Counted from the first letter of the stretch, positions 24,628 through 46,341 are shown. The stretch is 64,000 nucleotides of DNA from Chryseobacterium sp. (GCF_031277615.1 NZ_JAITMC010000038.1), one strand, 5' to 3'. Notes: a model not told the origin generated them from the sequence alone. Made by a program: numbers and translations.

Positions 24628-24660
24628 AAAAGCCTCACTTTTCAGCGAGGCTTTTGTTTT
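24628..24660. terminator. Bidirectional terminator between purE and the BspA-like gene
   Basis: AAAGCCTC-ACTTTTCAGC-GAGGCTTT. Confidence 0.7.
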
Positions 24661-26344
24661 ATTGTTTGGTGAACTTCAGGTTCTGAATATTTTCTTTTGT
24701 ACGAAGTTGTAAAAGGTAATTCCCGGGAGTAAGAGATTGGATATTAATGTGTTGATCCGTTAGGGAGCCCTTTGAAACAACTCTTCCGGACAGATCGTAG
24801 ATCGTATAACTTTCTGTATGAGGTATTCTGATATAAATGATATCTCTGGCAGGATTGGGGTAGAGTGGTTTTTTCTGATTCATTTTGAGGTCTGAGGTGC
24901 TTAGTTTAGGGGAACATTCTCCGTCGTAAGTATCACCTGAAATGATCCAGCTTTTGTTGCTCATTAAAAAATTTCTTGCACTTACGGCATTGGTTCCCGA
25001 ATACACCAGTGGAGAAACCGATGACAGATCAATATTGGAAGCAACCAATGGATTCTGGCTCCAGCCGAAAAGGGTCTCATCATAATTCTGGCAGGTAATG
25101 GCTGTATTTCTAAGCATATTGGCCGCAAACTGAAGGGAGTTAAGTTCCCATTCTCCCAGGCTTTGATTAAAATCTGTGGCATTATCGAACATGCTCGTCA
25201 TATTTTTAACTGATTTTACGTCCCATTTTCCCACATTCTGATTGAATATTTTAGCATTGTTAAACATATTCTGCATTCGTTCTACCTTGGATACGTTCCA
25301 GTTTGTGATATCACTGTTGAATTTTTCTGCGGAAAAAAACATTCCGTCCATATATTTTACATTGCCTGTATCCCAATTGCTGATATTCTGATTAAAAGCT
25401 TTGGCATTAAAAAACATAAAATTCATTTCAACGATCTGCGAGGTATTCCAGCTTCCGATGGGCTGGTTAAACTGTGCTGCATTGGCAAACATAAGCTCAG
25501 CATCTGTATTTTTAGACATATCCCAGTTTCCGACAGGCTGATTGAAAGTTTGGGCATTCTGAAACATGGCGGTCGTGGTAACTACTTTGGAGGTATTCCA
25601 GTTTCCGATTGGCTGATTAAATTTCATGGCCAGCATAAACATCACCTCCATCATGGTAACATTGGAAGTATCCCAGCCTCCGATAGGCTGATTAAAGAGA
25701 AAGCAACCTGAAAAAGTTCCTACCAGACTCGTTATATGAGAAATATCCCAGTTATTGATGGTTGGGTTTCCTGTCAGGTTAAAACAGTTGGCGAACATAT
25801 AAGACATATTGGTGGCATTGGAAAGATCCGGAATATCAGTAGCGGTTACGTCTAAAGCCCTACATTCATAAAATGCTCCTGCCATGCTGGACCAGCTGAT
25901 ATTTCCCCATTGTTCAACCTTCAGTATTTTGAAGTTATCTCCCAGAATGGTAATGCCGGGAGGGACGTCAGCATTTGAAAATGCGATCCGTTGAAAATTT
26001 CCGTTGCCGTTACTTACTTTGATGCGGTAGGTAGCCTGAGCAGGCTCTGGGTTCAAAGGGGTTCCAAAATCTATCAGGATCTGATATTGAGAAGTTACAT
26101 TCGTTAACGTTGCATGATGGGAAGGGTAGCCTATTTCTTCCCAATAGATGGTATAATCGGTTCCTGTTCCCGGAAACCAGATCTGGGTATTGCCTGAGCT
26201 GCCCGGAGTTCCCTGGCCGGCAGACGGAAGACTCGGGTTCCAGACGGTAATAAATTCATTCTGAGCTTTGGTCAGTTGAAATAACAGAATAAAAAGAATG
26301 GCAGCTAGTAAATTTTTTTTGTACATAATATTTTGTAAAATCAA
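24659..26344 (-). CDS. BspA/DUF285-type leucine-rich-repeat surface protein with T9SS C-terminal domain
   Basis: About eight 25-aa repeats WDTSNVTxMxxMF...FNQPIGxW; C-terminal LYPNPARD...YTIYDLSGR...PGNYLLQL...KFTKQ. Confidence 0.92.
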   Translation of the reverse strand: MILQNIMYKKNLLAAILFILLFQLTKAQNEFITVWNPSLPSAGQGTPGSSGNTQIWFPGTGTDYTIYWEEIGYPSHHATLTNVTSQYQILIDFGTPLNPEPAQATYRIKVSNGNGNFQRIAFSNADVPPGITILGDNFKILKVEQWGNISWSSMAGAFYECRALDVTATDIPDLSNATNMSYMFANCFNLTGNPTINNWDISHITSLVGTFSGCFLFNQPIGGWDTSNVTMMEVMFMLAMKFNQPIGNWNTSKVVTTTAMFQNAQTFNQPVGNWDMSKNTDAELMFANAAQFNQPIGSWNTSQIVEMNFMFFNAKAFNQNISNWDTGNVKYMDGMFFSAEKFNSDITNWNVSKVERMQNMFNNAKIFNQNVGKWDVKSVKNMTSMFDNATDFNQSLGEWELNSLQFAANMLRNTAITCQNYDETLFGWSQNPLVASNIDLSSVSPLVYSGTNAVSARNFLMSNKSWIISGDTYDGECSPKLSTSDLKMNQKKPLYPNPARDIIYIRIPHTESYTIYDLSGRVVSKGSLTDQHINIQSLTPGNYLLQLRTKENIQNLKFTKQ

Positions 26345-31446: not shown

Positions 31447-32067
31447 TTATTCAGCTTCTTCGCAGTTAACATTATTTTTACATTCGGGAAACTCTTGCTG
31501 ACTGATTATTTTTCCTGCTGGATCAAGATTTTTCCAGATACCACAGGGACATTCTGCACTTCCCTCATAACTTTCATGGGTATATTGTATTGATTTAATT
31601 GTTTTTGTGTTTTCAAAAAACTCTTTAATTTCATGGATCAGTATTTTTTCGCTGCAACTATTTCCATATTGTGTATGAAGCGTTTCTTTTATTAAAGAAC
31701 CTTTTGCATTCCAAAAAAATTCCTTTCCGGTAATGGCTATACATCCCCCGATATTTCCTTCTGTCCACTGATGTACCAACCGGTTGTTTTCATATTCATA
31801 ATGATTCTGCGGATAGTGATTGAAATTGGTTGTTTTACCCGTTAATGATCCTGTTTCAGAATAATACAGTTGTACATTTTTATGGTTTTCATGTTCTGAT
31901 AATAAGAGCTCTTTTACTTTTTTATTGGGATAATAAGAGATCTGTAAAGTATCAACGGAATCTGATACATTTTCTTTGGAGATAGAAGATGCTTTTGTAT
32001 TCTTTTTGCAAGAAAGTAAAATAAGAATTACTAAACTTATTGAAATGTTTATACTATATTTAATCAT
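31447..32067 (-). CDS. Hypothetical lipoprotein with YwqK/MORN-like short repeats; candidate orphan immunity protein
   Basis: LLSC lipobox; YYPNKKVK, YYSETGSL and CPCGIWK...GKIISQ segments; last gene of the effector cassette. Confidence 0.75.
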   Translation of the reverse strand: MIKYSINISISLVILILLSCKKNTKASSISKENVSDSVDTLQISYYPNKKVKELLLSEHENHKNVQLYYSETGSLTGKTTNFNHYPQNHYEYENNRLVHQWTEGNIGGCIAITGKEFFWNAKGSLIKETLHTQYGNSCSEKILIHEIKEFFENTKTIKSIQYTHESYEGSAECPCGIWKNLDPAGKIISQQEFPECKNNVNCEEAE

Positions 32068-32224
32068 TACTGATGTTCTTTATAGCTTTTGGGCTTGTTG
32101 AATAGTTACTTAATTATTAAGTATTTCAAACTAATTTTTATTGAAAATTATAATGACTTCAGTCTGTAAGATCTATTGATTTGCGGTAACTGTATTGATT
32201 TTTCAAGACTAAGAAATCATAGTA

Positions 32225-33112
32225 TTAATGAGAACATTGATTCCGAATTGTATTGGAATTAAATTCCTGGAACGATAATTTTCCAAAATTTTTCTCGGAA
32301 CATAAAATATTATTTTGTGTTCCGTCATTCCAATGTACATTTTCACCATACTTAGAAAGAATAATTTCGTTTAATTTCCCGTCAAATCTAAAAGTAATAT
32401 ATTTATCTGTACTATAATTATCTGGAACCTCATTTGTTAATTCAATGGTGAAAAATTGATTTTTGATAACCAGTTTTTTGAAAACATCTCCGAAATCATT
32501 AGGATATATATTTTCATTAGTTAAAATTCTATATTTTTTATTTTGTTCATTTAATAAAATTAGTATCGGTGCTACTTTCGTATTTGGATTTTGAGGGTCA
32601 ATATCATCATTATTGCCTAAAACAATAACTTTATCTGTAAATGTATCGTTATTTAGATCAGCATCTTTTTCCTCAACAGTAAAATATTTGCTTTTTGCAA
32701 TTGAATCAATAATTTTCTTTGAATCTAAATTCTTTAAGGCTGTATGTTCTTGGTGGTTAAAGAACTTTGGATATTCATTTTTAATATTTATCATATCCAG
32801 AGTTTTATACTTACCATTTTCAAAAAATATTAAATACCAAGGACTTTTAAAACTAGCAATCCTTATAAATTCATTGTTATGTTTAAATCCAATTATTTTA
32901 TTGTCTTCATAGTTTTTATAAGGAGTTTTCAAAGAGTCTAAATAACCAGATGCTTCAGAAAAATAATTATTTATATAATTTGCATTTGTAATTTCAAGAT
33001 TTCCTATAAAAGAACTATCAATGATGTTTTTATTTTCAGCTATATCTTTTTTTTGTTGACATGAAATAGGAATGAAAATGCTTATGAACAGAGATAAAAT
33101 TAAGTTTTTCAT
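32225..33112 (-). CDS. Hypothetical lipoprotein; candidate immunity protein
   Basis: ISC lipobox; DLNNDTFTDKV motif; very AT-rich; 11 nt downstream of the preceding gene. Confidence 0.8.
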   Translation of the reverse strand: MKNLILSLFISIFIPISCQQKKDIAENKNIIDSSFIGNLEITNANYINNYFSEASGYLDSLKTPYKNYEDNKIIGFKHNNEFIRIASFKSPWYLIFFENGKYKTLDMINIKNEYPKFFNHQEHTALKNLDSKKIIDSIAKSKYFTVEEKDADLNNDTFTDKVIVLGNNDDIDPQNPNTKVAPILILLNEQNKKYRILTNENIYPNDFGDVFKKLVIKNQFFTIELTNEVPDNYSTDKYITFRFDGKLNEIILSKYGENVHWNDGTQNNILCSEKNFGKLSFQEFNSNTIRNQCSH

Positions 33113-33123
33113 TTGTATTTTCT

Positions 33124-33969
33124 TTATGGTGTAGATATTCTTACAACAGATCCGTTATGATATTCTCTTATTTTCTCAACAGGACCATTAGGAGAAATAT
33201 TCCATTCTTTATTTCTTAGGCCGTTATTATAATCACCATCCATCCATATGGAGGTATTATATTCAAAAGAGTATCTTTTTTCTTCCCAATGACCATTTTT
33301 TAAATGATTTCTAACCTCACCTTTTTCCTGATATTCATATGTATTGCTCTCATTCTTGTCCCAATTTTTATTTACTTTTTCATTATTTTTTATAAAATAG
33401 TCCAAAAACATATTTTTATCGATTAAATATTGATAGCGTTTAGATTCTTTTTTGCTTTTCTCTAAAACGATATTTAAAATATTGGTTTTGTCAACATTAG
33501 AAAATCTTTTATAAAGTTCTTCGGAGTATAAATTTTCATAAACAACTATTGAAGATTGATCATTGATAGCTGCATCTAAATTCTTTGAGACAAGTAAAAT
33601 AGCTTCATACTTAGCATCCTCATACTTTATTTTAATACAGAATGAATTGAAACTCTGATTATTAATGATATAATCTTTATAAGAATAAAATTTGATAAGA
33701 TTTTCATTTTCAGCAAGAAATGCATCCCACATATAAGGCCTTTCAAAATCCCTTTCGAGTGCCTTTTTATAAATTATTACAAGTTTTTCCTTTGTTGTAT
33801 TAAGAATTTCTTTTCCAACCAATGCTTCATCTATTGATATGAAATTAGGGTTGTTTGGCTTATTTTGAGATATATTATTATCTAGTGAAATATCAGAAAA
33901 TTTTTCTTTCTGTTCACCTTTACAGCAGTTAATTATTAATATAATAATTAATAAAAAAAGATTTTTCAT
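33124..33969 (-). CDS. Hypothetical lipoprotein; candidate cognate immunity protein
   Basis: INCC lipobox; C-terminal KGEVRNHLKNGHW...GDYNNGLRNKEW repeats; starts 5 nt after the effector stop; very AT-rich. Confidence 0.8.
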   Translation of the reverse strand: MKNLFLLIIILIINCCKGEQKEKFSDISLDNNISQNKPNNPNFISIDEALVGKEILNTTKEKLVIIYKKALERDFERPYMWDAFLAENENLIKFYSYKDYIINNQSFNSFCIKIKYEDAKYEAILLVSKNLDAAINDQSSIVVYENLYSEELYKRFSNVDKTNILNIVLEKSKKESKRYQYLIDKNMFLDYFIKNNEKVNKNWDKNESNTYEYQEKGEVRNHLKNGHWEEKRYSFEYNTSIWMDGDYNNGLRNKEWNISPNGPVEKIREYHNGSVVRISTP

Positions 33970-33974
33970 GAATT

Positions 33975-36671
33975 TTATAATTGTTTTAATTTTGGTGTGA
34001 AAGTTTGGACATGTAAGTGATCATGATGATCTTCAAACTTAATTGCATGATTTAATATTTTTCCATTATATTTCCATGATAAGATACCTTTCCAACCATA
34101 TTTGTAAAGTGCATCATTGAAATTATTTTGTCGGTTTTCATCCATACCTTTCCAACCGCAAGGATCTCCTTTTTCATCATCTAAGTTAAGATGAACTTTC
34201 CTACCTGATTTGTCTTTTCTTAAATATCTTAGATCACCATTCATACCATTTTTATGAGATTTACTTCCTCCAATAGATTCACCTCTTTCATTACTAAAGC
34301 CATTGAAAGTATAATCTTCATAACTACAATCTAGCATGGCCCCTAGTAATGCAGCTAAGGAAACATCATTCATATAATAACGATTGGTGTTTATGTCTAA
34401 CGTAAATTTAATTGGACCATTTTTATAATTTTTTAAGGATCGAATATCAATTAAATATACATTATTTCCTTTTATTCGGTCTTTATAAAGATCACCATAA
34501 ATATTTTTAATTTTATTTAATTTATACTTACCTAGAGTATGAATTTTTCCTGTTTTGTCATGATAAAAGTATTCGGAAACTTCTCTTTTTTCATTCTGTA
34601 TTTTATAATTTATTTCTCCGGTTGAAGCCATTATATGAAATTGTATATCAGCATTTGATACATTGGAAGGTATTGCAATAGAACTTTTACATCTATCGGT
34701 TTCTAAAATAAGTTTTATTTTATTTAATATTTCTGTTTTTGCTACTAAATCTAACGTTGTGCCATGAACTAATCTGGTGACTTCTTTAAAATCTCCTTGT
34801 CTTGCAACCTCATTAATATCTTTTTCCGATCCATCTTTTAATAGGACACCATATTTCCAAAACCATCCTGCAGATCTTACCATTAAATCTAAGTCATTTA
34901 ACAATAAATCGGGATTTGATATTAAATCCTTACTAACATATTTTCCAAATCTTCTATAACCTTTTTTTCTCGTTATTTGTATTAAGCCTCGACCTCTGAA
35001 TTTATACCCATCACCTGATAATTCGTTTCCATTTTCAGCAATATTTCTGTATACATAATTTCCTAGCTTTTCAGGATCTCTAAAGTATAATTTAGGAATA
35101 CTATATAAATTTGGGTGGCTATCTTTTTTCCAATAGGTATGAAGAGCTTGCTCTGAAGTATAATATAGATTTTCATCTATTCGCGAAAAGTAACCAGTTT
35201 CTTTTGTTATTTGCGCTAAGAAAAAAGCTTTTTTTATACATGTATCTATTTTGAATTCAATAAGAGTTTCATTTAAGGCATTAATAAATTGTTGAATAGT
35301 TGTTGATGAAAGATTATTTTTTCCAGAAGTAAATAATTTCCTTACGTCTGGATATATTTTAGTAAATTCACTTAATGTAATTGATTTTTTACAGTTGCGA
35401 CATTCATTGTTCTTTAGATTCTGTGATTTCTGCATTTTCTCCACTCCCGTCGCACTTCTCACTTTCTCCACTTCCAGAAGCCCTTCCGAAGTTAGTCCAA
35501 ATTTTTGAGACTGAGCAGCAAGGTCTTTGGAAATAATTTCGATAAAATAGTTCTGGCTTTTTGCATCAGGATCCTGGGGAAGAAAGGATATTCCTTTTTT
35601 GAAGGCGCTTTCGGTAATATGAAAGGGTGGGAGAGTGTCACAAAGATCGCCCGGGATCTTAAAGACAGAGCTTCTGTAAATTTCATCATGTGAAGCGGCA
35701 TCATATTCCCAGATTACATATTGTACATGTTTTCCAACCATATTTTTGGAATAGATCCTGACATATACTTTATCGCCAACAGCTACTTGCGAGAGTTCTT
35801 TTCCGGTGCTGTCTACAAATAAGGCTTCTATGATATTGCCGGTAGGATCAGGTTGTTTGGGCGCTTTTCCTGGTCCTATGGGGAATTTTGGGGTGCTTTT
35901 CTGGGGTTGAGGTTTAAGCAGGCTTGGTGGCTGGTCTGTTTTATGATCGGGGTTGTTTACCTGTACATTGGCTTGGCTGGCTCCTTGTATTTTCCCTGAA
36001 TAGCTGGCAGTCACGTAATATTCATGGCTGGCTCCCTCATCCTGATCTCCTTTCATTGTAAAGGCATCAGCCATTTTTCTGAGAATGCGTTCATCAGCCA
36101 TCAGGGGAATCGGTACTTCTGCAATCCCTTTAGGGTTTACTCTGGCCTTATAGGTCCGGGGATGAAAGTTATTTTTGTTTACAATAGGATCATGGCCGTG
36201 TCCCGGTGCATCATCTTCCCAGAGATGAAATTCTATTTCTTTGTTGAACATGGCGATACAATGAGCCTGCGCAATAAGGGTATCACGGTAGCCGGCTTTG
36301 TTCACGTTTTTTGAACCTCTGTTAAAAAGAATTACCTTTTCTATTTTGGATACTTTACTGCCTGTCGGAACTAAAGTTAATGTGCCTGTCAATTGCCTGG
36401 TGGCCGGCATTCCAGGTAGTATACCCTGTTGGTTTTCGTAGACTTTCATCTGAAACTCTATCCCCAAGGCCGGCTCTCCAAACCGGTAGCTTACTTTCAC
36501 CCCGGTTTTGGGTGTTCCGGTGATGTCTTTCCAGGTTCCGTTTTTCTGCTTTTTATAAAGATACCACTCATAATGACCTTTTAAACAGCTTAAAAGACCA
36601 GAGGGCGTTACTTCATAGTGGTATGTTGTTCCCGTTAAGGGATTTTGATGACCAATAATATTTCCTGTCAT
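33975..36671 (-). CDS. Putative polymorphic antibacterial effector: conserved N-terminal region + GH19 lysozyme-like domain + LAS/M15-type Zn peptidase
   Basis: No signal peptide. GH19 motifs FLAQITKETG, GDGYKFRGRGLIQITR, NPDLL, SAGWFW, VTRLVHG. LAS motifs SHKNGMNGD (H-x6-D) and HHDHLH (HxH). Confidence 0.82.
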   Translation of the reverse strand: MTGNIIGHQNPLTGTTYHYEVTPSGLLSCLKGHYEWYLYKKQKNGTWKDITGTPKTGVKVSYRFGEPALGIEFQMKVYENQQGILPGMPATRQLTGTLTLVPTGSKVSKIEKVILFNRGSKNVNKAGYRDTLIAQAHCIAMFNKEIEFHLWEDDAPGHGHDPIVNKNNFHPRTYKARVNPKGIAEVPIPLMADERILRKMADAFTMKGDQDEGASHEYYVTASYSGKIQGASQANVQVNNPDHKTDQPPSLLKPQPQKSTPKFPIGPGKAPKQPDPTGNIIEALFVDSTGKELSQVAVGDKVYVRIYSKNMVGKHVQYVIWEYDAASHDEIYRSSVFKIPGDLCDTLPPFHITESAFKKGISFLPQDPDAKSQNYFIEIISKDLAAQSQKFGLTSEGLLEVEKVRSATGVEKMQKSQNLKNNECRNCKKSITLSEFTKIYPDVRKLFTSGKNNLSSTTIQQFINALNETLIEFKIDTCIKKAFFLAQITKETGYFSRIDENLYYTSEQALHTYWKKDSHPNLYSIPKLYFRDPEKLGNYVYRNIAENGNELSGDGYKFRGRGLIQITRKKGYRRFGKYVSKDLISNPDLLLNDLDLMVRSAGWFWKYGVLLKDGSEKDINEVARQGDFKEVTRLVHGTTLDLVAKTEILNKIKLILETDRCKSSIAIPSNVSNADIQFHIMASTGEINYKIQNEKREVSEYFYHDKTGKIHTLGKYKLNKIKNIYGDLYKDRIKGNNVYLIDIRSLKNYKNGPIKFTLDINTNRYYMNDVSLAALLGAMLDCSYEDYTFNGFSNERGESIGGSKSHKNGMNGDLRYLRKDKSGRKVHLNLDDEKGDPCGWKGMDENRQNNFNDALYKYGWKGILSWKYNGKILNHAIKFEDHHDHLHVQTFTPKLKQL

Positions 36672-36674
36672 TGT

Positions 36675-37493
36675 TTAAGTGTAATAAAGTTCGTCTGTTC
36701 CGTGTATATTTTCTTTGAATTCATCAAAATCTACCAGAGGATTGTAAATCTGCTGTTCATGGGTATGGGATTTAACCACCTGATTTTTTCCGATTTCACT
36801 CTGCTGTCCATGTTTCAGGATGGTGATTTTTCCTCCTGTACTGCACATCAGTTCAGAAATTTCCGTAAGGCAGCTTTTTCCCATAACTTTTACCTTTTCA
36901 TAAGGTTTCTGCCATTTTCCGGTAGGAGCATAAGTGCAAGGAAGATAGCCTCCTGCAGAGGGTTTTAGCTTACACTGTCCGAAAGGCCGGGCTTCGGGAT
37001 CAAACTGAAGATCATCTTCTGTAACGGCAAGATAGTCTTCCTGTCCGTCGGCATCGTTCCAATAGTGTTTCTGATGGCTTGTGACCTTGAATTTCGGAAA
37101 TGCAAAACCTTGGTTACACTGTACAATTCCTTTTTGGATCACAAAATATTTTCCTTCATGAGCATCGGAGCCTTTATTTTGCTCCTGATCATGTAATTTT
37201 TTAGAATTGCTTTTCTCTTTCTCTAGTTGTTCATGTCTTTGCATATTTGTACCCGAGGAAGCTTCCGTTTGTCCCTGATATCTGTGATCATCAGAAATGT
37301 TGTTGACTTCATCGGCTATCAGCAGAGGATCTTCTGGTATAAGGATTGTTTTTCCCGGGATAGGTTGCTGCATAATGTCCTCCGGAGGACAGTGAAGGTT
37401 ATGGTAGGTTTTCAGAATACCTTCATTTTTCAGTTTAAACTGTCTTGCAAGAGAGCTGAAGGTATCACCCTGCTGGATGATATAATTTTTCAT
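36675..37493 (-). CDS. LysM + DUF4280 (PAAR-like spike) protein
   Basis: N-terminal YIIQQGDTFSSLARQF (LysM). C-terminal VQCNQG...PFGQCKLKP...YLPC...KW...SELMCSTGGKITILKHGQ (DUF4280). Confidence 0.88.
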   Translation of the reverse strand: MKNYIIQQGDTFSSLARQFKLKNEGILKTYHNLHCPPEDIMQQPIPGKTILIPEDPLLIADEVNNISDDHRYQGQTEASSGTNMQRHEQLEKEKSNSKKLHDQEQNKGSDAHEGKYFVIQKGIVQCNQGFAFPKFKVTSHQKHYWNDADGQEDYLAVTEDDLQFDPEARPFGQCKLKPSAGGYLPCTYAPTGKWQKPYEKVKVMGKSCLTEISELMCSTGGKITILKHGQQSEIGKNQVVKSHTHEQQIYNPLVDFDEFKENIHGTDELYYT

Positions 37494-37494
37494 A

Positions 37495-38523
37495 TTATTC
37501 CTGTATTAGTGTAATTGTATGTCGGTGAATAAGATCTTTTCCTTCCCGCAACGATACAGACGCCTTTAGCTGAAGAAGGTTTTTACTTTGTTGATGGGTG
37601 GTATATTCCAGTAAAATATTTCCGGATGCTGGTTCTGCAGGAAGTTCAGGCAGCCTTATTCCGCGTATGATTTCCTGTAAGCTGTATGGTTCTGCAAGAC
37701 TACCGTTTAAAGTTGTCTTTACAAGGCGGTCGTCTGAAATTTCCTGTTCTATATTCATTTCGCACTGTACGGGAAAAGAATTTTTATAAAAATAAAATGT
37801 TTCTTTCCAGGCTTTTGTTTGATGGAAACGGTTCAGTTCAGGGAATAGTGACTGAAAAAGAAGCGTACTCTGAAACTGCTGCAGGACAAAAATTTCATCT
37901 ATAATACTTCTTTCAAACGAATTCATATAAATTTCGGCAATTTCACCCGTAAAGAAATCCTCGATCTGCTGACGCCTTTCTGTAAAGGCGGTCATGAGCT
38001 TTTTATGATCAGCGAGTCCTGTAATGTTACCCTGATCATGAATGATGAAGCAGAGCGGCATAATACTGTTCATAGATGCGATGGATAGACTGCTTACCTT
38101 ATCCTCCACGATCTGCTCATCTGATTTAAAATCCTTCTGAACATAAGAGAGGATCAACTGGTTTTTATAATGATCTTTGTTCAGGTTCAGGTCAACAGTA
38201 TAGCTGATGCTGATGTTGGGTTCATACAGGCTTTCGATGTTTTCACTGACCTTATAGCTGGAAGCATAAAAAGAATCCAGCAGCAGGGAAGAAGGTAGCC
38301 TGTTTTTTCTTTCTTCCCGTTGCTGTTTTTCCGATTTAAAAACAGCAGGAACAAGGATACGCCTGATTCCGGTTAAGCTTTTCAGCCGGATAATATCTGT
38401 TTTCGGGCAATGGGAATTATGGAAAAGCTTCAGTTCTTCATCAGTCATTCCCAAACGGGAAGATATCGACTTTAAGGTGTCTCCGGAACGGACCCGGTAT
38501 TCTAAAATAGTATTTTCCATCAA
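37495..38523 (-). CDS. LysM-domain protein, cytoplasmic; candidate adaptor
   Basis: YRVRSGDTLKSISSRLG LysM; no signal peptide; 1 nt from the DUF4280 gene. Confidence 0.82.
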   Translation of the reverse strand: MMENTILEYRVRSGDTLKSISSRLGMTDEELKLFHNSHCPKTDIIRLKSLTGIRRILVPAVFKSEKQQREERKNRLPSSLLLDSFYASSYKVSENIESLYEPNISISYTVDLNLNKDHYKNQLILSYVQKDFKSDEQIVEDKVSSLSIASMNSIMPLCFIIHDQGNITGLADHKKLMTAFTERRQQIEDFFTGEIAEIYMNSFERSIIDEIFVLQQFQSTLLFQSLFPELNRFHQTKAWKETFYFYKNSFPVQCEMNIEQEISDDRLVKTTLNGSLAEPYSLQEIIRGIRLPELPAEPASGNILLEYTTHQQSKNLLQLKASVSLREGKDLIHRHTITLIQE

Positions 38524-41214: not shown

Positions 41215-42378
41215 TTAATAATCTACATTAGACGTCTCTTCACCAATGTTCCAGGTAAGTCCGAAACGAAGGGTATTATCTAAAGCAGTATTGATTTTTG
41301 ACATATTGATCAGGTAAGAAAGATCAAGTCCGAAAGAACGGTATTTTAATCCTACACCGGCTGTTGCAAATTGTCTTGCTCCCTGGGTTTCACTTTCAGA
41401 AAAATAACCGGCTCTCACAGCAAAAGCATTGTCATATGAATATTCCAAAGCGCCACTGTACATGATGCTGTTCTTATTTTTGAACGATTTGCTGATCCCT
41501 GCAATAGGACCTACGTTTGGAATCTCATATCTCGGCTGTCTTGTATTAGGATCTATTCCTACAAATTCAGCCTGTGGAACAAGAATCTTTGAACCCTCGA
41601 AGCTGATTCCGATTTTATTCATATCATCAAGAAACATATCGTATCCTACCCCTATTCTTGCTGTCGCAGGAAGGTAGTTTCTGGTATCATCATTTCCTGA
41701 ATAATCCAGCTTAGGACCTATGTTTTTAATGGTAAAACCTGCATTTACCTTACCTTCATAGCCTCCAAAACTTGAAAATCTAGGTGAGGTATAGTATCCT
41801 GATATATCTACCGCAAAAGAGTTGGCTGGCTTAAGAGTGGTATCTGTGTTGAAACCTCCGGCTAAATCTGAACGGATGAATCTACCGGTAACCGCTCCTG
41901 AGAATGAATCTGAAAGCTTCAGGGCGTAGGCTACGTCAATGGAGAATTCGTTAGGCTTGGAAGTTCCCATTGAGGCTACATCAGAACCTACTAATTGTGT
42001 AAGATCCACTTCCCCCATATTGAAATAATAAATACTGGCAGAAAGGGTAGATCTTTCATCCTGTCCTAAGAATTTATGGAAAGATGCGTAAAGTAAAAAT
42101 ACATCATTGGTAAGCTTACTCATATAAGGAGTATAACTAAGACCTACGGAAGAACTTGTTCTGCTAAAAGGATATTTCGCCGGATTCCAGAATTGCGAGA
42201 ATGCATCAGATGAGGTGGCTACCCCCTGATCTCCCATCCCTCCAGACCTTGCATCTGGTGCAATCCTTAGAAATGGGGCTCCGGTTAATACGGGGTTTAT
42301 CTTGCCCAAGTCCTGTGCATAGCCTAGAAAACCAGCGCTTAAACCAAATCCCAAAAGCAGTTTTGTAGTTAAATTCAT
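41215..42378 (-). CDS. porV: T9SS outer-membrane shuttle PorV
   Basis: TGAPFLRIAPDARSGGMGDQG, FWNPAKY, YFNMGE, NALDNTLRF; immediately downstream of porU. Confidence 0.95.
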   Translation of the reverse strand: MNLTTKLLLGFGLSAGFLGYAQDLGKINPVLTGAPFLRIAPDARSGGMGDQGVATSSDAFSQFWNPAKYPFSRTSSSVGLSYTPYMSKLTNDVFLLYASFHKFLGQDERSTLSASIYYFNMGEVDLTQLVGSDVASMGTSKPNEFSIDVAYALKLSDSFSGAVTGRFIRSDLAGGFNTDTTLKPANSFAVDISGYYTSPRFSSFGGYEGKVNAGFTIKNIGPKLDYSGNDDTRNYLPATARIGVGYDMFLDDMNKIGISFEGSKILVPQAEFVGIDPNTRQPRYEIPNVGPIAGISKSFKNKNSIMYSGALEYSYDNAFAVRAGYFSESETQGARQFATAGVGLKYRSFGLDLSYLINMSKINTALDNTLRFGLTWNIGEETSNVDY

Positions 42379-42438
42379 ATGTTGTCTTTTATATATTATC
42401 AGTTTTTTATAAATATTATTATGTATGCTTTATTTAAA

Positions 42439-45400
42439 TTATTTCAAAAGTACCATTTTTTCTACAGCTGTGGCACTTCCTTTGCATTTTTCTTGGTTTT
42501 GACTTTTTGCAAATATCTTAAAAATATACGTACCTTTTGCAACACTTGCCCCAAAATCGTCTCTTCCGTCCCATTCTATTGCCTGACGTGGTGTTCTGAA
42601 GCCCTGTAGGAACGGTTCTGCAACCACCGGCTGCGATAATGTTCTCACTAATTTTCCTGTAATCGTATAAATCTGAACATTCACATCCAGAATATCATCA
42701 CAGTTATGTTCAAAATGAATATAGGTTTTATTCGTGAAAGGATTCGGCCAGTTCAGCGGTCGGTTAATCACCAGATGCTGATCGGATTCATCCTTAACTT
42801 CAAAGTTTAACGTAGCAGTTGTCGAATTATTGTTTATATCCCAAACTTTAAATGTTAATTGATGTTGACCTATCGCAAGATTTCTGAAAGGGTAGGTTAC
42901 GTTTCCTTTCTGATAGTCAGCCAGACTTGGGTTAAGACATCCGTTACCTTCACCGGAAGCAAAGAAATCATTAAGAACAACCGTGTTGATTATCTGGCCA
43001 TCCAGATACACCGTAATATCGTGGCCCACTCCGGATCCTGTAGAGTTAATTCCCGTATCATCGGTAATACAGGCCAGAAGCATAGGGTTCTGGTTGGTGA
43101 TTCCACCATCTGCAAAGTTGGTGTTATTCATATACAGCTTTACTTTTGGAGGCTCATTATCGTTGATTCCGTTCGGGTTGATATCTCCTACCTGAACAGT
43201 CTGGTTGTTGAATACATCAGAAACCTTATTGTCTGCATATCCTAAGATTCTTCCCTGTCCTACTGCATAATTAATGTCTTTAGGAACATAGAACTCTACC
43301 GTGAAAACACCGTTTACAGCCGTACCGGAAGCTTTTACAATAGCACTTCCTTCTTCTGTGTAATCCAGTACAGGCGATAATCCACCGTCATTATTTAAAG
43401 TCTTTTTATTAAGTCTTTTATCAAAAATATTGATGGAAACCCTTCCGTTGAATGTAGAATTAAGCGTTCCGTTAGGATTGTTGATATGGCCTTTTACTTT
43501 TACAAAATCCAGACCTCTGATCAGTCCCGGAACCGGCGTTTCAATATTGTCTATCACCAAAAGTCTCTGAGGTCTGCTCAGTTTCATGGCCGGATCACCC
43601 AGGAAATTAACTTTAAGGTGGTCAATTCCTGCTGTTTTTTGTTTTTTAGCGATTAAATGAGCGTATCCTAAAGATTCAAAATCATCACCGGTTAATTTAA
43701 AAATATTTCTGGTGTAATAATCGGTAAAGCTACGGCCGTATCCTACGTCGATGGCACGGCTGGAAGTAATCATTGCCGCTGCACCTCCCTGTTTCAGTTT
43801 AATGAATTGCTCTCCGGCTGAGAAAGTAGCCGGTTCATCCCATAATGTGAATTCACAGGTAATGGTAGATACAAACGGGAATCTGCTGTACACCGTAGAA
43901 AAATTATTGGAGTTCTGGATCTCAGTGCTGGTGAGTACTCTTTCCTGTGCCCATCCGTTGATTCCTCCATGTCCGAAATAGAACATATATAAGCTGTTTC
44001 CGATATCATTTGAAATAGCCTGCGTTACCTGCGGATATCTTTGTCCTCCCGCTGTACTCTGAGCCGGAAAAGCATCCAGATACAGTTTTCTTACATTATA
44101 CTCTTTCAGGTCCACTTGCCCCGGCTGCTCAAATACATTCACGAGAGTTGTGTTCATTTCATTATGGAAAGGCGCTCCGCCGTCTTTATCATCATCCACC
44201 ACGAAATCAAGCTTCATACGCCATTCTCCAAAAGGAGAGGACTGGCCCGGAAGGGAATTATAATAAGCCAGCGTTTTACTGATCATGTCTCCGGCTTCAC
44301 TTACATTGGCTGCGGGGATTCTTCCTACAGGCAGGTCCGGCAGATTATTATCAATAGTGGATGCCGTTTGCGGCTGGGTCATTACAATATAATCATCCGT
44401 AATAAAAGAGGCTACAAAATCCGAAGAATATTCACTCTGGTAGCCGGTGACAATATTCGAGTTGTTGGAGATCCTGTTTTTGTAATCATAGGAGCCATCC
44501 CCTAAAATGAATACATATTTAAGGCTTCCTGCAGGAGTATTAAGCTTTGTGACAAAATCTCTCACGGCTGTAAGATCCCTGCTTCCGCTTCCGAATTCGT
44601 TATAAACTTTATTAACGTCTACGATTTCTACCTTATAATTGTTCTTGGTCTGATGGTAATTAGCCAGTCTCTGGGCCTGTCCCATCATTTCAGGAACAGT
44701 AAGGATCAGGTAATCTACATTCTGAAGAGCCGAAAGATTCTGATTGGCGACTCTTTCCACAAACTGGGGCGTGAAAGCCGCATCAGCACGGAAGGCTACG
44801 AACTCATTATTAAAATTAGGATCTGAAGCCAGATAACCGAAGTTAAAGCTTCCTGCACCTCCTTTGTTGACCCTTTTGTTGGCATTGGTAATATCTGTCA
44901 CATCCCATACCTGCTCCAGAGCCGCTGCATTACTGATACCAAAACCATAATTGGTATTGGAGCCGCTTACCAGAGAAAAATCCCTGAAATTCATCTGAGA
45001 ACCATTGAAGGTAAGATTTTCTTTATATTGTACCTCTACATAGTCCAGGTAAAATGTTCCGTTGGGATTGATCGAAATATTGGGTGAATAACTGATGGCT
45101 ATCTGATTTCCGGTCAGCCCGGTCAGCATTCCTTCATATCTTACCGGATAAAAATCACGTATGGTATTCTGATCATTGTCAGGAACCAGCTGAGAAGAAG
45201 GATTGGTATTGTTGATTTTAAATTCAATCGTGTTTTTCTGGGCTTTGAAACCAATTACCTGCGTCTTGAAACGCACCATATCAGAAGCCTGAATAGGCGA
45301 ATTTGTGGTTAAAGTAACAGTCTTATCCGTTGTAATCGGGCCGTCTTCTACCCAGACTCTTCCAACTTTTAAAAGATTCTTCTGATCCTCGTTGATCACC

Positions 45401-46341
45401 TGATAATTATCGTACCTCGTAATCAGAGGAGTTGTAGGAAGATTTCCGTCTATAGTCTGAACCCTTTTACCCGGGCCTTTATCAAAATTGATATAATAAT
45501 AGGAGAAATCTTCGTAAATATTTTTTAGATTGTTGATCCTGTTGATTCTGGTTTCGGTTCTTTTGAAGCCGTTTCCATTGGACGTATCATAGAGGTTATA
45601 TCCGTTGGGCCCCTGCGCATAGAAAAGAGCATAATCCCCGTCATTCCATACATTATCTTCTTCGCCTACCACCTGAATGGCATTTTCCTGAAGCGCACTG
45701 TATTTAGTATCCTGATTGAATTCCGGAAGCATAACGCCCCCATTTCCGTAGATCCTGAAATTTCTGGGATTTACAGAAGATGGATTGATTCCGTTGTCTC
45801 TTAAAAACTGTGCTGTAATTTTAAAAATCCCCGAACGGTCTACTTTAATTTTGTAAAAGCCACCACTGGAAAGAGGATTATCAGCTGTCCCGACTCTGTT
45901 GGCCGTTCCGGATCTGAAATTATTCGGAGCAGAGGTTTCTGTAACATTGAATGACGAAAGCCTTTGAACCCGGCCTTTTACATTTTTAAATAAAGAGACA
46001 CTGATGTTGGCGTATCTTTCCCCTTCCAATGTATAATACGTAATATCCGCTACCTCATAATCAGGCAGGCTGTTTTTGTCAAGGTCAAATAAATCTTTCC
46101 CGGAAATGTTGTCCCAGGTAAGATCTGAAACTTTAAGCTGCTTTTCTCCTACTTTTTGTTTAGTTATAATAAAAATGTTATTTTGGCTAAATGAAAAACC
46201 TTCATTTTTAAAATTCGGAAGATTTAATTTTGTTTCGCCAAAGTCCTGAATTTTGGAACCATCCCATTCTATGGTTTTCCTTTGGGCCCAAAGCACTGAT
46301 GCAAAAGAAAATAGAAATAAAAGCGTGATTTTTTGTTTCAT
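42439..46341 (-). CDS. porU: T9SS sortase PorU (C25 peptidase)
   Basis: 1300 aa; catalytic YFGHGG and TITCEF; LPVGRIP; C-terminal CTD (NWPNPFT...YTITGKLV...GTYI). Confidence 0.96.
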   Translation of the reverse strand: MKQKITLLFLFSFASVLWAQRKTIEWDGSKIQDFGETKLNLPNFKNEGFSFSQNNIFIITKQKVGEKQLKVSDLTWDNISGKDLFDLDKNSLPDYEVADITYYTLEGERYANISVSLFKNVKGRVQRLSSFNVTETSAPNNFRSGTANRVGTADNPLSSGGFYKIKVDRSGIFKITAQFLRDNGINPSSVNPRNFRIYGNGGVMLPEFNQDTKYSALQENAIQVVGEEDNVWNDGDYALFYAQGPNGYNLYDTSNGNGFKRTETRINRINNLKNIYEDFSYYYINFDKGPGKRVQTIDGNLPTTPLITRYDNYQVINEDQKNLLKVGRVWVEDGPITTDKTVTLTTNSPIQASDMVRFKTQVIGFKAQKNTIEFKINNTNPSSQLVPDNDQNTIRDFYPVRYEGMLTGLTGNQIAISYSPNISINPNGTFYLDYVEVQYKENLTFNGSQMNFRDFSLVSGSNTNYGFGISNAAALEQVWDVTDITNANKRVNKGGAGSFNFGYLASDPNFNNEFVAFRADAAFTPQFVERVANQNLSALQNVDYLILTVPEMMGQAQRLANYHQTKNNYKVEIVDVNKVYNEFGSGSRDLTAVRDFVTKLNTPAGSLKYVFILGDGSYDYKNRISNNSNIVTGYQSEYSSDFVASFITDDYIVMTQPQTASTIDNNLPDLPVGRIPAANVSEAGDMISKTLAYYNSLPGQSSPFGEWRMKLDFVVDDDKDGGAPFHNEMNTTLVNVFEQPGQVDLKEYNVRKLYLDAFPAQSTAGGQRYPQVTQAISNDIGNSLYMFYFGHGGINGWAQERVLTSTEIQNSNNFSTVYSRFPFVSTITCEFTLWDEPATFSAGEQFIKLKQGGAAAMITSSRAIDVGYGRSFTDYYTRNIFKLTGDDFESLGYAHLIAKKQKTAGIDHLKVNFLGDPAMKLSRPQRLLVIDNIETPVPGLIRGLDFVKVKGHINNPNGTLNSTFNGRVSINIFDKRLNKKTLNNDGGLSPVLDYTEEGSAIVKASGTAVNGVFTVEFYVPKDINYAVGQGRILGYADNKVSDVFNNQTVQVGDINPNGINDNEPPKVKLYMNNTNFADGGITNQNPMLLACITDDTGINSTGSGVGHDITVYLDGQIINTVVLNDFFASGEGNGCLNPSLADYQKGNVTYPFRNLAIGQHQLTFKVWDINNNSTTATLNFEVKDESDQHLVINRPLNWPNPFTNKTYIHFEHNCDDILDVNVQIYTITGKLVRTLSQPVVAEPFLQGFRTPRQAIEWDGRDDFGASVAKGTYIFKIFAKSQNQEKCKGSATAVEKMVLLK

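What the first reader, a model, noticed from the sequence alone, without database searches (positions are those of the whole stretch)
33975..35260. One toxin carrying two different peptidoglycan-cutting chemistries
Seen: a phage-endolysin-type GH19 domain at about 35260-34730 (AQITKETG with catalytic Glu kept but the usual His replaced by Lys; GDGYKFRGRGLIQIT; a degenerate VHGTTLD end). It is followed by a LAS metallopeptidase at about 34400-33975 (SHKNGMNGD = H-x6-D; DHLH = HxH). Known: GH19 endolysins cleave the glycan, and LAS/M15-M74 enzymes cleave peptide stems or cross-links. Inference: a bifunctional glycosidase + endopeptidase warhead, unusual for a single T6SS-type effector.
Basis: partly seen in the sequence, partly recalled or inferred. 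Interest (0 to 1): 0.7.

Follow-up and report, generated by a model that had tools for sequence, protein, structure and literature searches.

The report
Two-enzyme cell-wall toxin of Chryseobacterium
This gene encodes a type VI secretion toxin carrying two predicted cell-wall-cutting enzymes, a GH19 sugar-chain cutter and an unannotated zinc peptidase resembling E. coli MepA; such dual toxins are already known, so it is a new variant rather than a new kind.

Summary
The 898-aa ORF at 33975-36671 (-) has a GH19 lysozyme-type domain (res 461-658). It matches solved GH19 endolysins (8e-22) and the T6SS lysozyme TsePC (4e-16). Both catalytic Glu (E491, E500) are invariant in homologs.

Residues 665-898 match no Pfam, NCBIfam or PDB sequence. 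They carry family-invariant SHxxGxxxD and HxxHxH motifs with the spacing seen in E. coli MepA. A pLDDT-95 model gives MepA (three chains) and the Streptomyces Zn DD-peptidase as its only credible PDB fold matches. These matches are weak (best E 0.046, TM 0.42), and profile-profile comparison with MepA is not significant. I therefore call it a LAS-type peptidase of a distinct, uncurated family.

T6SSiii delivery is well supported:
- A DUF4280 PAAR-like gene lies upstream.
- The N-terminus resembles BtaeB-NTD.
- A homolog sits inside a T6SSiii cluster.
- The genome has TssR, TssD and VgrG genes.

One conserved lipoprotein (33124-33969) is the likely immunity protein.

The claim of rarity is overstated. 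Tse4, TseP, WHIX double-blade effectors and Tae8AB already pair two wall-targeting domains. At least 59 of 104 long proteins with this peptidase domain also carry a glycan cutter. Verdict: a new variant of a known kind; both enzyme activities are untested.

The parts
33975..36671 (-). Effector gene, 898 aa, no signal peptide: N-terminal loading region, then GH19 domain, then C-terminal LAS-like domain
35937..36671 (-). N-terminal beta-sandwich loading region (res 1-245). It is shared by many Flavobacteriia effectors that carry different toxin domains.
   Evidence: Model blocks for res 1-245 are mostly pLDDT 80-93. The top PDB fold hit is the T6SS effector BtaeB-NTD (9jdh, E 1.2e-9); the VgrG cargo complex 9jg8_C also matches. 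Res 100-260 are conserved in more than 35 relatives.
35472..35837 (-). Second beta-rich segment (res 279-400) after a Pro-rich linker. It is a diverged repeat of res 100-260.
   Evidence: A BLAST HSP aligns res 268-325 with the first-repeat region of the paralog. Model confidence here is low, pLDDT 50-68.
35385..35402 (-). Conserved Cys motif C424-R-N-C427-K-K at the junction between the loader and the toxin half. It coincides with the GC break.
34698..35291 (-). GH19 (lysozyme/endolysin-type) glycoside hydrolase domain, res 461-658
   Evidence: PF00182 33.3 bits. PDB hits 9eoi 8e-22, 9ms6 2e-19, 8xcl (TsePC) 4e-16.
35172..35201 (-). Catalytic pair E491 (35199-35201) and E500 (35172-35174). 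The 9-residue spacing equals that of E654/E663 in TseP.
   Evidence: E491 34/34 and E500 33/34 in homologs. TseP residues are from PMC11893102.
33978..34679 (-). C-terminal LAS-like (MepA-like) putative Zn peptidase domain, res 665-898. It belongs to a family with no Pfam or NCBIfam model.
   Evidence: Model pLDDT 95. Foldseek top four hits are 1tzp_B, 1tzp_A, 1u10_A (MepA) and 1lbu. The family has 288 clusters at 50% identity.
34233..34265 (-). Motif S803-K-S-H806-K-N-G809-M-N-G-D813 (H-x6-D). H806 and D813 are the putative Zn ligands.
   Evidence: Invariant in the family. hhalign places it on MepA GGHASH113QTGLDVD120.
34011..34028 (-). Motif H882-H-D-H885-L-H887 (HxxHxH). H887 is the putative third Zn ligand; H885 and H882 are putative catalytic or second-shell residues.
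   Evidence: Invariant in 51 long representatives. Same spacing as MepA H206-R-A-H209-M-H211.
33124..33969 (-). Lipoprotein (281 aa), the conserved candidate immunity protein
   Evidence: A homolog lies immediately downstream of the LAS domain in 14/14 GH19+LAS loci and in 0/13 LT+LAS loci.
32225..33112 (-). Lipoprotein (295 aa). It may be extra or orphan immunity. It is not conserved with the effector.
   Evidence: No homolog in 84 related loci; lipobox seen in the sequence.
31447..32067 (-). Lipoprotein (206 aa) with a MORN-variant repeat. It is not conserved with the effector.
36675..37493 (-). LysM + DUF4280 PAAR-like spike-tip protein (272 aa)
   Evidence: PF14107 2.3e-19. Res 114-241 match the BtpeA PAAR region in 9jg8_B, E 3.6e-5.
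37495..38523 (-). LysM protein (342 aa), candidate adaptor. Homologs lie next to the PAAR-like gene in related cassettes.
   Evidence: Its adaptor role is inferred by analogy with BtapC (PMC13699834) and was not tested.

Best explanation
The ORF is a cargo effector of the Bacteroidota-type type VI secretion system (T6SSiii) of a Chryseobacterium.

Delivery (inferred). Its N-terminal beta-sandwich region mounts it on the VgrG spike. It does so together with the PAAR-like DUF4280 protein encoded just upstream, and probably the LysM protein before that.

Action in the rival cell's periplasm (inferred). The GH19 domain hydrolyses the glycan backbone of peptidoglycan like a GH19 endolysin, using E491 and E500. 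The C-terminal domain is a Zn-dependent LAS-type peptidase, with H806, D813 and H887 as metal ligands and H885/H882 as catalytic helpers. It cuts the peptide part of peptidoglycan. By analogy with MepA the most likely target is the cross-link, but the exact bond is not determined.

Self-protection (inferred). The producer is protected by the conserved periplasmic lipoprotein encoded immediately downstream (33124-33969).

Origin. The toxin half and the immunity genes form a low-GC module joined to a resident loading domain at a conserved CxxC junction.

What is shown and what is inferred. Shown here: domain homology, motif conservation, gene context and fold similarity. Inferred: both enzyme activities, zinc binding, secretion and immunity.
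For: GH19:
- PF00182 scores above its cut-off.
- E 8e-22 to 3e-14 to solved GH19 lytic enzymes/endolysins, and 4e-16 to the T6SS lysozyme TsePC, 8XCL (PMC11893102).
- E491 and E500 are invariant.

LAS domain:
- S803, H806, G809, D813, D844, H882, H885 and H887 are invariant across a family of 288 clusters.
- Motif spacing is identical to MepA, SH113xxGxxxD120 and H206xxH209xH211.
- hhalign aligns the first motif in that register.
- The pLDDT-95 model has MepA (three chains) and the Zn DD-peptidase 1lbu as its top four PDB hits. No other hit exceeds probability 0.11.

Periplasmic target:
- All three downstream genes encode lipoproteins.
- The domain is repeatedly fused to other wall enzymes: GH19, lytic transglycosylase, Phage_lysozyme, Amidase_3 and LysM.

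T6SS delivery:
- DUF4280 gene upstream, matching BtpeA in 9jg8.
- The N-terminal model matches BtaeB-NTD at 1.2e-9.
- Homolog P0023 lies between TssR/DUF4280 and TssD/ClpV.
- The own genome has TssR, 6 TssD, 10 VgrG-like matches (4 above the Pfam cut-off) and 11 DUF4280 matches (10 above the cut-off).

Immunity and maintenance of the pair:
- An imm1 homolog follows the effector in 14/14 GH19+LAS loci.
- A diverged paralog in the same genome keeps both domains and both motifs.
- 6/120 congeneric species carry the intact tandem.
Against: - The LAS assignment has no significant sequence support. There is no Pfam, NCBIfam or PDB sequence hit, even with a family profile. hhalign against a MepA alignment gives E 0.31 over 18 columns.
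- Foldseek values are modest: E 0.046, TMq 0.42, rmsd 8 A. There are no hits in BFVD.
- I could not inspect model coordinates, so the clustering of H806, D813 and H887 into one metal site is unverified.
- GH19 has K490 where the consensus has His, and a non-consensus VHGT near its C-terminal end. Both are conserved in the clade, but their effect on activity is unknown.
- Only one conserved immunity gene accompanies two toxic domains, whereas WHIX double-blade effectors need two (PMC12135965). One domain might therefore be non-toxic.
- No expression, secretion or enzymatic data exist.
Confidence: 0.68

Rival explanations
1. Single-blade effector. Only the GH19 domain is catalytic. The C-terminal domain is a non-enzymatic module, for example peptidoglycan binding, an immunity-docking surface, or a structural metal site that stabilises the toxin.
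For: Only one conserved immunity gene accompanies the effector. There is no significant sequence match to any curated peptidase family. The fold match is weak.
Against: The invariant residues are exactly the LAS metal and catalytic set, in the MepA register. The domain occurs as the only recognisable toxin module at the C-terminus of DUF4280-, RHS- and VgrG-linked proteins, and as short stand-alone proteins. That pattern fits a toxin better than a binding module. Tse4 and TseP are bifunctional yet each needs only one immunity protein (10.1101/2021.03.04.433973; PMC11893102).
Confidence: 0.15
2. The C-terminal LAS-like domain is active but cuts a bond other than the cross-link. Possibilities are an L-Ala-D-Glu or other stem endopeptidase, a D,D- or L,D-carboxypeptidase, or a MurNAc-L-Ala amidase.
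For: LAS enzymes span all of these specificities. This is established for families M15A-D, M23 and M74; MepA itself is annotated as a DD- and LD-endopeptidase. Nothing measured here fixes the scissile bond.
Against: The closest fold and motif matches are the HxxHxH-type enzymes MepA (cross-link endopeptidase) and the Streptomyces Zn DD-peptidase, not the ExxH-type VanX/VanY group.
Confidence: 0.25
3. The protein is a chitinase, as the database names of its homologs suggest ('Predicted chitinase'). It would be aimed at fungi or used for nutrition rather than for killing bacteria.
For: Pfam PF00182 is named 'Chitinase class I', and sources name homologs 'predicted chitinase'.
Against: The best matches are bacterial and phage GH19 lytic enzymes and the T6SS lysozyme TsePC. 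Plant chitinases match only at 1e-5 to 1e-6, over about 55 residues. There is no signal peptide or T9SS C-terminal domain. The gene sits in a PAAR-like plus lipoprotein immunity cassette. It is fused to a peptidoglycan-type peptidase.
Confidence: 0.04
4. The C-terminal domain is a metal-dependent nuclease or another cytoplasmic toxin, such as a His-Me finger type, rather than a wall enzyme.
For: It has His-rich motifs. A few HNH endonucleases appear among the BFVD hits, at probability 0.04 or less.
Against: Those hits are at noise level. The only credible fold hits are LAS peptidases. The downstream genes encode lipoproteins, not cytoplasmic immunity proteins. The fusion partners are wall enzymes.
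Confidence: 0.02

Closest known systems
Tse4 (Tpe4AB) of Acinetobacter baumannii ATCC 17978
   Same: A single T6SS cargo effector that cuts both the glycan and the peptide cross-link of peptidoglycan. It is modular, its endopeptidase is a LAS-superfamily enzyme, and one downstream immunity gene protects (10.1101/2021.03.04.433973).
   Different: Tse4 is LysM + phiKZ gp144-like lytic transglycosylase + M23 (HxxxD/HxH) peptidase, delivered by a proteobacterial T6SSi. Here the order is loader + GH19 hydrolase + a MepA-like (Hx6D/HxxHxH) domain with no curated family, in a T6SSiii. Tse4's activities are demonstrated; these are not.
TseP of Aeromonas dhakensis (C-domain structure 8XCL)
   Same: A dual-function T6SS effector whose lysozyme domain is homologous to this GH19 domain (E 4.3e-16). 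It has two catalytic Glu 9 residues apart. Its halves differ in GC content, which suggests fusion (PMC11893102), and a GC break is seen here too.
   Different: TseP's second activity is an N-terminal Zn amidase that also has a structural role. Here the second domain is C-terminal, LAS-like and probably a peptidase, and the loading function lies in a separate N-terminal region.
WHIX double-blade effectors (Vibrio/Aeromonas, e.g. Awe1)
   Same: A class of T6SS cargo effectors carrying a peptidase-type domain and a glycosidase-type domain. GH19 and Peptidase M15-like are among the listed domains (PMC12135965).
   Different: In WHIX effectors the two toxins flank a central WHIX secretion domain, and each needs its own immunity protein. 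Here both toxins lie C-terminal to a BtaeB-like loader, and only one immunity gene is conserved. I did not test for a WHIX domain.
E. coli MepA (peptidase family M74; PDB 1U10, 1TZP) and Streptomyces albus G Zn DD-peptidase (M15A; 1LBU)
   Same: They are the top four fold matches of the C-terminal model. The motif pattern and spacing, SHxxGxxxD ... HxxHxH, are the same as in the MepA sequence.
   Different: There is no significant sequence or profile similarity: PF03411 and the M15 families do not hit, and hhalign gives E 0.31. MepA is a housekeeping periplasmic enzyme with a signal peptide. This domain is a toxin module found at the C-terminus of polymorphic effectors.
BtpeA-BtaeB-BtapC cargo complex on VgrG of Bacteroides fragilis GA3 T6SS (PDB 9JG8, 9JDH)
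   Same: The delivery layout is the same: a PAAR-like protein, an adaptor, and a cargo effector with a beta-sandwich NTD. The N-terminal model hits BtaeB-NTD at 1.2e-9 and the DUF4280 protein hits BtpeA at 3.6e-5.
   Different: The toxin domains differ. Here PAAR carries a LysM and no toxin. Equivalence of the adaptor (the 342-aa LysM protein) to BtapC was not tested.
Mycobacteriophage Lysin A-type modular endolysins
   Same: They combine a peptidase module with a GH19 glycosidase module in one lytic protein (my own knowledge of Payne and Hatfull 2012, not re-read here). The 'Endolysin A' chains 9hqw and 9hnu match this GH19 domain at 1.7e-5.
   Different: These are phage lysis-from-within enzymes with cell-wall-binding domains. 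They are not secreted toxins paired with immunity proteins.

Membership tests
Glycoside hydrolase family 19 (endolysin/lysozyme-type branch) | Significant match to the family profile and to solved members | tested here: met
   PF00182 33.3 bits against a cut-off of 25.5. 9eoi 8.3e-22 over res 461-638, 9ms6 2.4e-19, 4ok7 3.2e-14.
Glycoside hydrolase family 19 (endolysin/lysozyme-type branch) | Two catalytic glutamates (general acid and general base) | tested here: met
   E491 aligns with the E of HES in 9eoi, and E500 with the E of VENL. Conservation is 34/34 and 33/34.
Glycoside hydrolase family 19 (endolysin/lysozyme-type branch) | Signature [FHY]-G-R-G-x-x-Q-[IL]-[ST] and the W-[FY]-W substrate-groove motif (PROSITE-type signatures, recalled from memory) | tested here: met
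   F558-R-G-R-G-L-I-Q-I-T567 and W603-F-W605. R559, G560, R561, Q565 and W605 are 34/34.
Glycoside hydrolase family 19 (endolysin/lysozyme-type branch) | Peptidoglycan (muramidase) rather than chitin hydrolysis | not testable with these tools
   Inferred from the nearest relatives being lytic enzymes and TsePC (PMC11893102).
LAS metallopeptidases (lysostaphin / D-Ala-D-Ala peptidase / Sonic hedgehog fold; M15, M23, M74) | H-x(3-6)-D metal-ligand motif | tested here: met
   H806-x6-D813, invariant in 116 and 51 representatives.
LAS metallopeptidases (lysostaphin / D-Ala-D-Ala peptidase / Sonic hedgehog fold; M15, M23, M74) | A second motif, H-x-H (or E-x-x-H), that provides the third ligand | tested here: met
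   H885-L-H887 preceded by H882. These are invariant in the 51 long representatives.
LAS metallopeptidases (lysostaphin / D-Ala-D-Ala peptidase / Sonic hedgehog fold; M15, M23, M74) | LAS core fold | tested here: inconclusive
   The top four Foldseek PDB hits are LAS enzymes, but the values are weak: 1tzp_B E 0.046, prob 0.93, TMq 0.42; 1lbu prob 0.25.
LAS metallopeptidases (lysostaphin / D-Ala-D-Ala peptidase / Sonic hedgehog fold; M15, M23, M74) | Zn2+ binding and peptide-bond hydrolysis in peptidoglycan | not testable with these tools
   Needs biochemistry.
Peptidase family M74 (MepA, PF03411) | Significant match to the family profile | tested here: not met
   No Pfam hit at E up to 10 for the domain or up to 1 for 65 family members. 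hhalign against an 18-sequence MepA alignment gives E 0.31. It is therefore not filed as M74. It works like MepA at the motif level only.
T6SSiii cargo effector (Bacteroidota) | Encoded next to a PAAR-like (DUF4280) or VgrG gene and followed by an immunity gene | tested here: met
   DUF4280 gene 3 nt upstream. The conserved lipoprotein lies 5 nt downstream.
T6SSiii cargo effector (Bacteroidota) | The genome encodes a T6SSiii apparatus, and homologs lie in T6SS clusters | tested here: met
   TssR, 6 TssD and 10 VgrG-like matches (4 above the Pfam cut-off) in the own genome. Homolog P0023 is flanked by TssO, TssR, DUF4280, TssD and ClpV. PF05943 (VipB) found nothing.
T6SSiii cargo effector (Bacteroidota) | An N-terminal loading domain like that of known cargo effectors | tested here: met
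   Foldseek gives 9jdh BtaeB-NTD at E 1.2e-9 and 9jg8_C at TMt 0.48. The model is only moderately confident, mean pLDDT 65.7 and about 80-90 for res 1-245.
T6SSiii cargo effector (Bacteroidota) | T6SS-dependent secretion and immunity-reversible killing | not testable with these tools
   Needs genetics.
Bifunctional peptidoglycan-degrading T6SS effectors (Tse4 / TseP type) | Two separate wall-targeting catalytic domains with intact active-site residues in one polypeptide | tested here: met
Bifunctional peptidoglycan-degrading T6SS effectors (Tse4 / TseP type) | Both activities demonstrated on sacculi | not testable with these tools
   Needs UPLC-MS muropeptide analysis.
WHIX double-blade effectors | A central WHIX secretion domain flanked by the two toxins | not tested
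   No WHIX profile was available. The architecture differs, with both toxins C-terminal of the loader.

The most novel reading that the evidence does not exclude
The C-terminal domain founds an unrecognised, widely spread branch of LAS zinc peptidases. It would be a third HxxHxH-type lineage beside M15A and M74, and it has become a dedicated interbacterial toxin module. It occurs in T6SSiii, T6SSi (VgrG-linked in Acinetobacter and Gilliamella) and RHS-type proteins. It is preferentially wired directly behind interchangeable glycan cutters (GH19, lytic transglycosylase, lysozyme). In the GH19 clade a single two-part lipoprotein neutralises the pair.
Probability: 0.45. Interest if true: 0.55.

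Novelty: new variant of a known kind. Interest (0 to 1): 0.42.

Why it matters
Effectors that cut peptidoglycan at two different bonds lyse prey efficiently and are candidate enzybiotic scaffolds. Tse4 and TseP have already been studied with that in mind.

This locus adds a Bacteroidota (T6SSiii) version with a different pairing: a GH19 hydrolase and a MepA-like peptidase. It also exposes a large domain family with no curated model. That family has 288 clusters at 50% identity, found in 103 genome loci across Bacteroidota, Xanthomonadales, Gilliamella and Acinetobacter. At present its carriers are named 'GH19 protein', 'predicted chitinase', 'DUF4280 domain-containing protein' or 'hypothetical protein'. 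A curated model would improve the annotation of many polymorphic toxins.

The clean loader/toxin junction, marked by the CxxC motif and the GC break, and the single conserved immunity gene give direct handles on two questions. One is how toxin halves are swapped. The other is whether one immunity protein can cover two enzymes.

The concept is not new, and nothing here overturns current understanding.

Tried and rejected
- Sequence searches of the C-terminal domain returned nothing. These were Pfam at E up to 10, NCBIfam, PDB phmmer, PDB hmmsearch with a 28-sequence profile, and Pfam at E up to 1 on 65 family members.
- hhalign of the family against an 18-sequence MepA alignment aligned only the H-x6-D motif. 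The register was right but the score was not significant, E 0.31. The MepA alignment was shallow (at least 72% identity) because only the top 120 hits are listed.
- Foldseek against the viral library BFVD gave no credible hit.
- I could not read model coordinates; no structure file is laid in the Python box. The metal-site geometry is therefore unchecked.
- PF05943 (VipB/TssC) finds nothing in the genome. I did not take this as absence of a T6SS, because TssR, TssD and VgrG are present.
- I looked for Fte1 (Fjoh_3275) of F. johnsoniae as a possible known carrier of the domain. The Russell 2014 paper is not held, and the F. johnsoniae record could not be searched as a genome. The F. johnsoniae homolog P0011 lies at about 1.22-1.24 Mb of the genome record, after a separate 161-aa DUF4280 protein. 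From that position I infer it is not Fte1, but this was not verified.
- I tried to assign imm2 and imm3 to one of the two domains by homology. They have no relatives in 84 related loci.
- I tried to split imm1 between GH19 and LAS by co-occurrence. The two co-vary perfectly: every LAS domain at 59% identity or more is GH19-linked. The test is therefore uninformative.
- I considered and rejected the chitinase, nuclease and phage-endolysin readings (see the rival explanations).


Full report
**What is there.** The finding lies in one 898-aa ORF, window 33975-36671 on the minus strand. It is the fourth-from-last of six co-oriented, tightly spaced genes:
- a 342-aa LysM protein (37495-38523);
- a 272-aa LysM + DUF4280 protein (36675-37493; PF14107 2.3e-19);
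- the 898-aa ORF;
- three genes whose products begin with lipoprotein signal sequences (33124-33969, 32225-33112, 31447-32067).

The flanking genes are housekeeping: a phosphopantetheinyl transferase on one side and a FUSC-like membrane protein plus PorV/PorU on the other. The cassette therefore stands alone, away from any secretion-system core.

**GH19 domain: confirmed.**
- Pfam PF00182 scores 33.3 bits, above its 25.5 cut-off, but only over res 553-606.
- phmmer against PDB is much clearer. The 'putative lytic enzyme' 9eoi matches at 8.3e-22 over res 461-638. Then come the PWe1 endolysin 9ms6 (2.4e-19), 8xcl (4.3e-16), 8p8e, and the endolysin 4ok7 (3.2e-14). Plant chitinases follow only at 1e-5 to 1e-6, over about 55 residues.
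[quoted passage not shown] Its active residues are E654 and E663 (PMC11893102). The present protein has E491 and E500 with the same 9-residue spacing.
- In 34 homologous GH19 domains E491 is 34/34 and E500 is 33/34. The residue before E491 is Lys or Arg in 33/34, rather than the consensus His. The FRGRGxxQI and WFW motifs are essentially invariant.

It describes a clade-wide feature, not decay.

**C-terminal domain: LAS-like, in no curated family.** Residues 665-898 hit nothing in Pfam (E up to 10), NCBIfam or PDB sequences. A 28-sequence profile hit nothing in PDB sequences either, and Pfam hit nothing when 65 family members were scanned at E up to 1.

The domain is nevertheless a large family. 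An exhaustive phmmer search found 288 clusters (50% identity) at E up to 1e-3, and 200 at E up to 1e-10. The match lies at or near the C-terminus in nearly all listed proteins, which range from about 75 to about 1800 aa. S803, H806, G809, D813 and D844 are invariant in 116 representatives. R764, G859, H882, H885 and H887 are also invariant in the 51 long ones.

I fetched E. coli mepA and read its product.
- MepA has GGHAS-H113-QT-G-LDV-D120 and H206-RA-H209-M-H211-V.
- The present protein has GGSKS-H806-KN-G-MNG-D813 and H882-HD-H885-L-H887-V.
- Both patterns are SHxxGxxxD and HxxHxH, with identical spacing.

An AlphaFold2 model of res 665-898, built on a 28-sequence alignment, is confident (mean pLDDT 95, pTM 0.92). 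Foldseek against 350,542 PDB chains ranks MepA first, second and third (1tzp_B E 0.046, prob 0.93, TMq 0.42; then 1tzp_A and 1u10_A). The Streptomyces Zn DD-peptidase 1lbu is fourth. No other hit exceeds probability 0.11.

The top four hits are thus the LAS enzymes I recall as carrying the HxxHxH pattern. I confirmed that pattern only for MepA. The ranking agrees with the independent motif evidence. The numbers are weak, however:
- hhalign of the family against a shallow MepA alignment aligns only the 18-column H-x6-D motif. The register is correct but E is 0.31.
- The viral structure library gave nothing.
- I could not open the coordinates to check that H806, D813 and H887 converge.

I therefore describe the domain as working like a LAS Zn peptidase of the MepA/M15A type. 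It is not a member of M74, because that membership test was run and not met.

**Why a wall target.** The downstream genes encode lipoproteins, the usual form of periplasmic immunity in Bacteroidota (PMC13699834). The domain's fusion partners elsewhere are wall enzymes or toxin-delivery modules: GH19, Phage_lysozyme, Amidase_3, LysM, SH3_3, DUF4280 and RHS. Relatives without GH19, such as P0048, carry a lytic transglycosylase instead (9udh, 8.6e-19).

I counted 104 family proteins with at least 250 aa ahead of the LAS domain. Of these, 37 have GH19, 22 have that transglycosylase type (one of which also carries the A. bouvetii-type N-terminal domain) and one more has only that N-terminal domain. 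The other 44 have no glycan cutter recognised by simple phmmer; 41 of them have no recognised partner domain at all. This sample is enriched for close relatives.

In Acinetobacter bouvetii an 806-aa protein ending in this domain follows a VgrG gene and precedes a small lipoprotein-like ORF.

**Delivery.**
- The protein has no signal peptide.
- The DUF4280 protein upstream matches the PAAR-like part of BtpeA in the VgrG cargo complex 9jg8 (E 3.6e-5).
- A model of res 1-430 is only moderately confident overall (mean pLDDT 65.7) but good for res 1-245. Its best PDB match is the N-terminal domain of the Bacteroides fragilis T6SS effector BtaeB (9jdh, 1.2e-9). It also matches chain C of the BtpeA-BtaeB-BtapC-VgrG complex. 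Generic Ig/FN3 arrays follow in the ranking.
- Res 100-260 are conserved in more than 35 relatives that carry different toxins.
- Homolog P0023 of C. ginsenosidimutans lies between TssO/TssR/DUF4280 and TssD/ClpV. The DUF4280-fused relative P0043 follows a VgrG gene.
- The window's own genome has TssR, six TssD, ten VgrG-like matches (four above the Pfam cut-off) and eleven DUF4280 matches (ten above the cut-off). A core cluster lies on contig C30.

**Immunity.** The 281-aa lipoprotein has a homolog (28-62% identity) immediately after the LAS domain in 14 of 14 GH19+LAS loci. It has none in 13 transglycosylase+LAS loci. In this data set GH19 and the 59%-or-more LAS clade co-vary completely, so I cannot say which domain it neutralises. 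The other two lipoproteins have no relatives in 84 related loci. They may be orphan immunity genes or unrelated.

**Origin.** GC content drops from 42-47% (35650-36700) to 23-32% (about 31900-35400). The break falls at a conserved Cys motif, CRNCKK in this protein (res 424-429) and CPNC[KDE] in GH19-type relatives. GH19, LAS and the lipoprotein genes share the low GC. They therefore appear to have arrived as one module joined to a resident loader.

A diverged paralog in the same genome (C23:239433-241832, 799 aa) repeats the whole plan. Its loader is 47% identical. It has a shorter GH19-like domain and a LAS-like end with SVEHVNGKSID and HNSHLH. Six of 120 congeneric species genomes carry the full tandem at 65-66% identity. 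The nearest relative is in Chryseobacterium rhizoplanae.

**Comparison with what is known.** Bifunctional wall-degrading T6SS effectors are established.
- Tse4 combines LysM, a lytic transglycosylase and an M23 endopeptidase. Both activities are shown, and it has one immunity protein (10.1101/2021.03.04.433973).
- TseP combines a Zn amidase and a GH19-like lysozyme (PMC11893102).
- WHIX double-blade effectors list GH19 and Peptidase M15-like among their domains (PMC12135965).
- A. baumannii group Tae8AB is listed with COG3179, LysM and CHAP domains (PMC6833914).

Three things differ here: the specific pairing, the uncurated LAS branch, and the T6SSiii/BtaeB-type loader. I rate this a new variant of a known kind. 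It is of moderate interest, chiefly as an annotation gain and as a tractable case for toxin swapping and one-immunity-for-two-enzymes questions.

Noticed in passing
window 35350-35650: There is a sharp GC break inside the effector gene. The N-terminal loader is 42-47% GC. The GH19 and LAS domains and the lipoprotein genes are 23-32% GC down to about 31900. The break coincides with the conserved Cys motif CRNCKK (35385-35402). Relatives have CPNC[KDE] or CxCK at the same junction. This is a likely recombination joint for toxin swapping.
   Followed up: partly
G000:C23:239433-241832 (own genome, outside the window): A paralogous 799-aa effector follows another DUF4280 gene. Its loader is 47% identical. 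It has a shortened GH19-like domain (ILAQATVETG, WRGHGLLQLT) and a LAS-like end (SVEHVNGKSID, HNSHLH).
   Followed up: partly
window 31447-33112: The second and third lipoprotein genes of the cassette have no homolog in 84 loci that encode related effectors. They may be orphan immunity genes. The third has a MORN-variant repeat and follows a 157-nt gap.
   Followed up: partly
window 35472-35837 vs 35892-36389: Res about 270-400 look like a diverged internal repeat of the conserved loader segment at res 100-260. Both have a 'WE-DDA' type strand, and a BLAST HSP links res 268-325 to the first-repeat region of the paralog.
   Followed up: partly
window 37495-38523: The 342-aa LysM protein has no signal peptide. 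It has homologs next to the PAAR-like gene in Chryseobacterium and Chitinophaga cassettes (L018, L019, L020). It may be the counterpart of the BtapC/Ate3 adaptor. This was not tested structurally.
   Followed up: partly
L015:13351-13497 (Flavobacterium johnsoniae): A 48-aa ORF between the two lipoprotein genes downstream of the homologous effector is a C-terminal fragment of a Peptidase_M15_4-type enzyme (GGDW...DKPHFE). It looks like a displaced remnant of another LAS toxin tip.
   Followed up: no
L078:155-6185 (Acinetobacter bouvetii): The gene order is VgrG, a 165-aa ORF, an 806-aa effector and a 179-aa lipoprotein-like ORF. The effector's last approximately 200 residues are the same LAS-like domain (SKSHINGEAGD, HNNHLH). 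Its N-terminus shows no Pfam or PDB sequence match. The same domain also occurs in Gilliamella, Luteimonas, Lysobacter and Stenotrophomonas.
   Followed up: partly
own genome: Pfam VipB (PF05943) finds no sheath gene, although TssR, TssD, VgrG and DUF4280 genes are present. The T6SSiii sheath apparently escapes that model.
   Followed up: no
window 41215-46341 and 24659-26344: Type IX secretion genes PorV and a PorU-like C25 peptidase lie about 2.5 kb from the cassette. A DUF285-repeat protein with a T9SS C-terminal sorting domain lies at 24659-26344.
   Followed up: no
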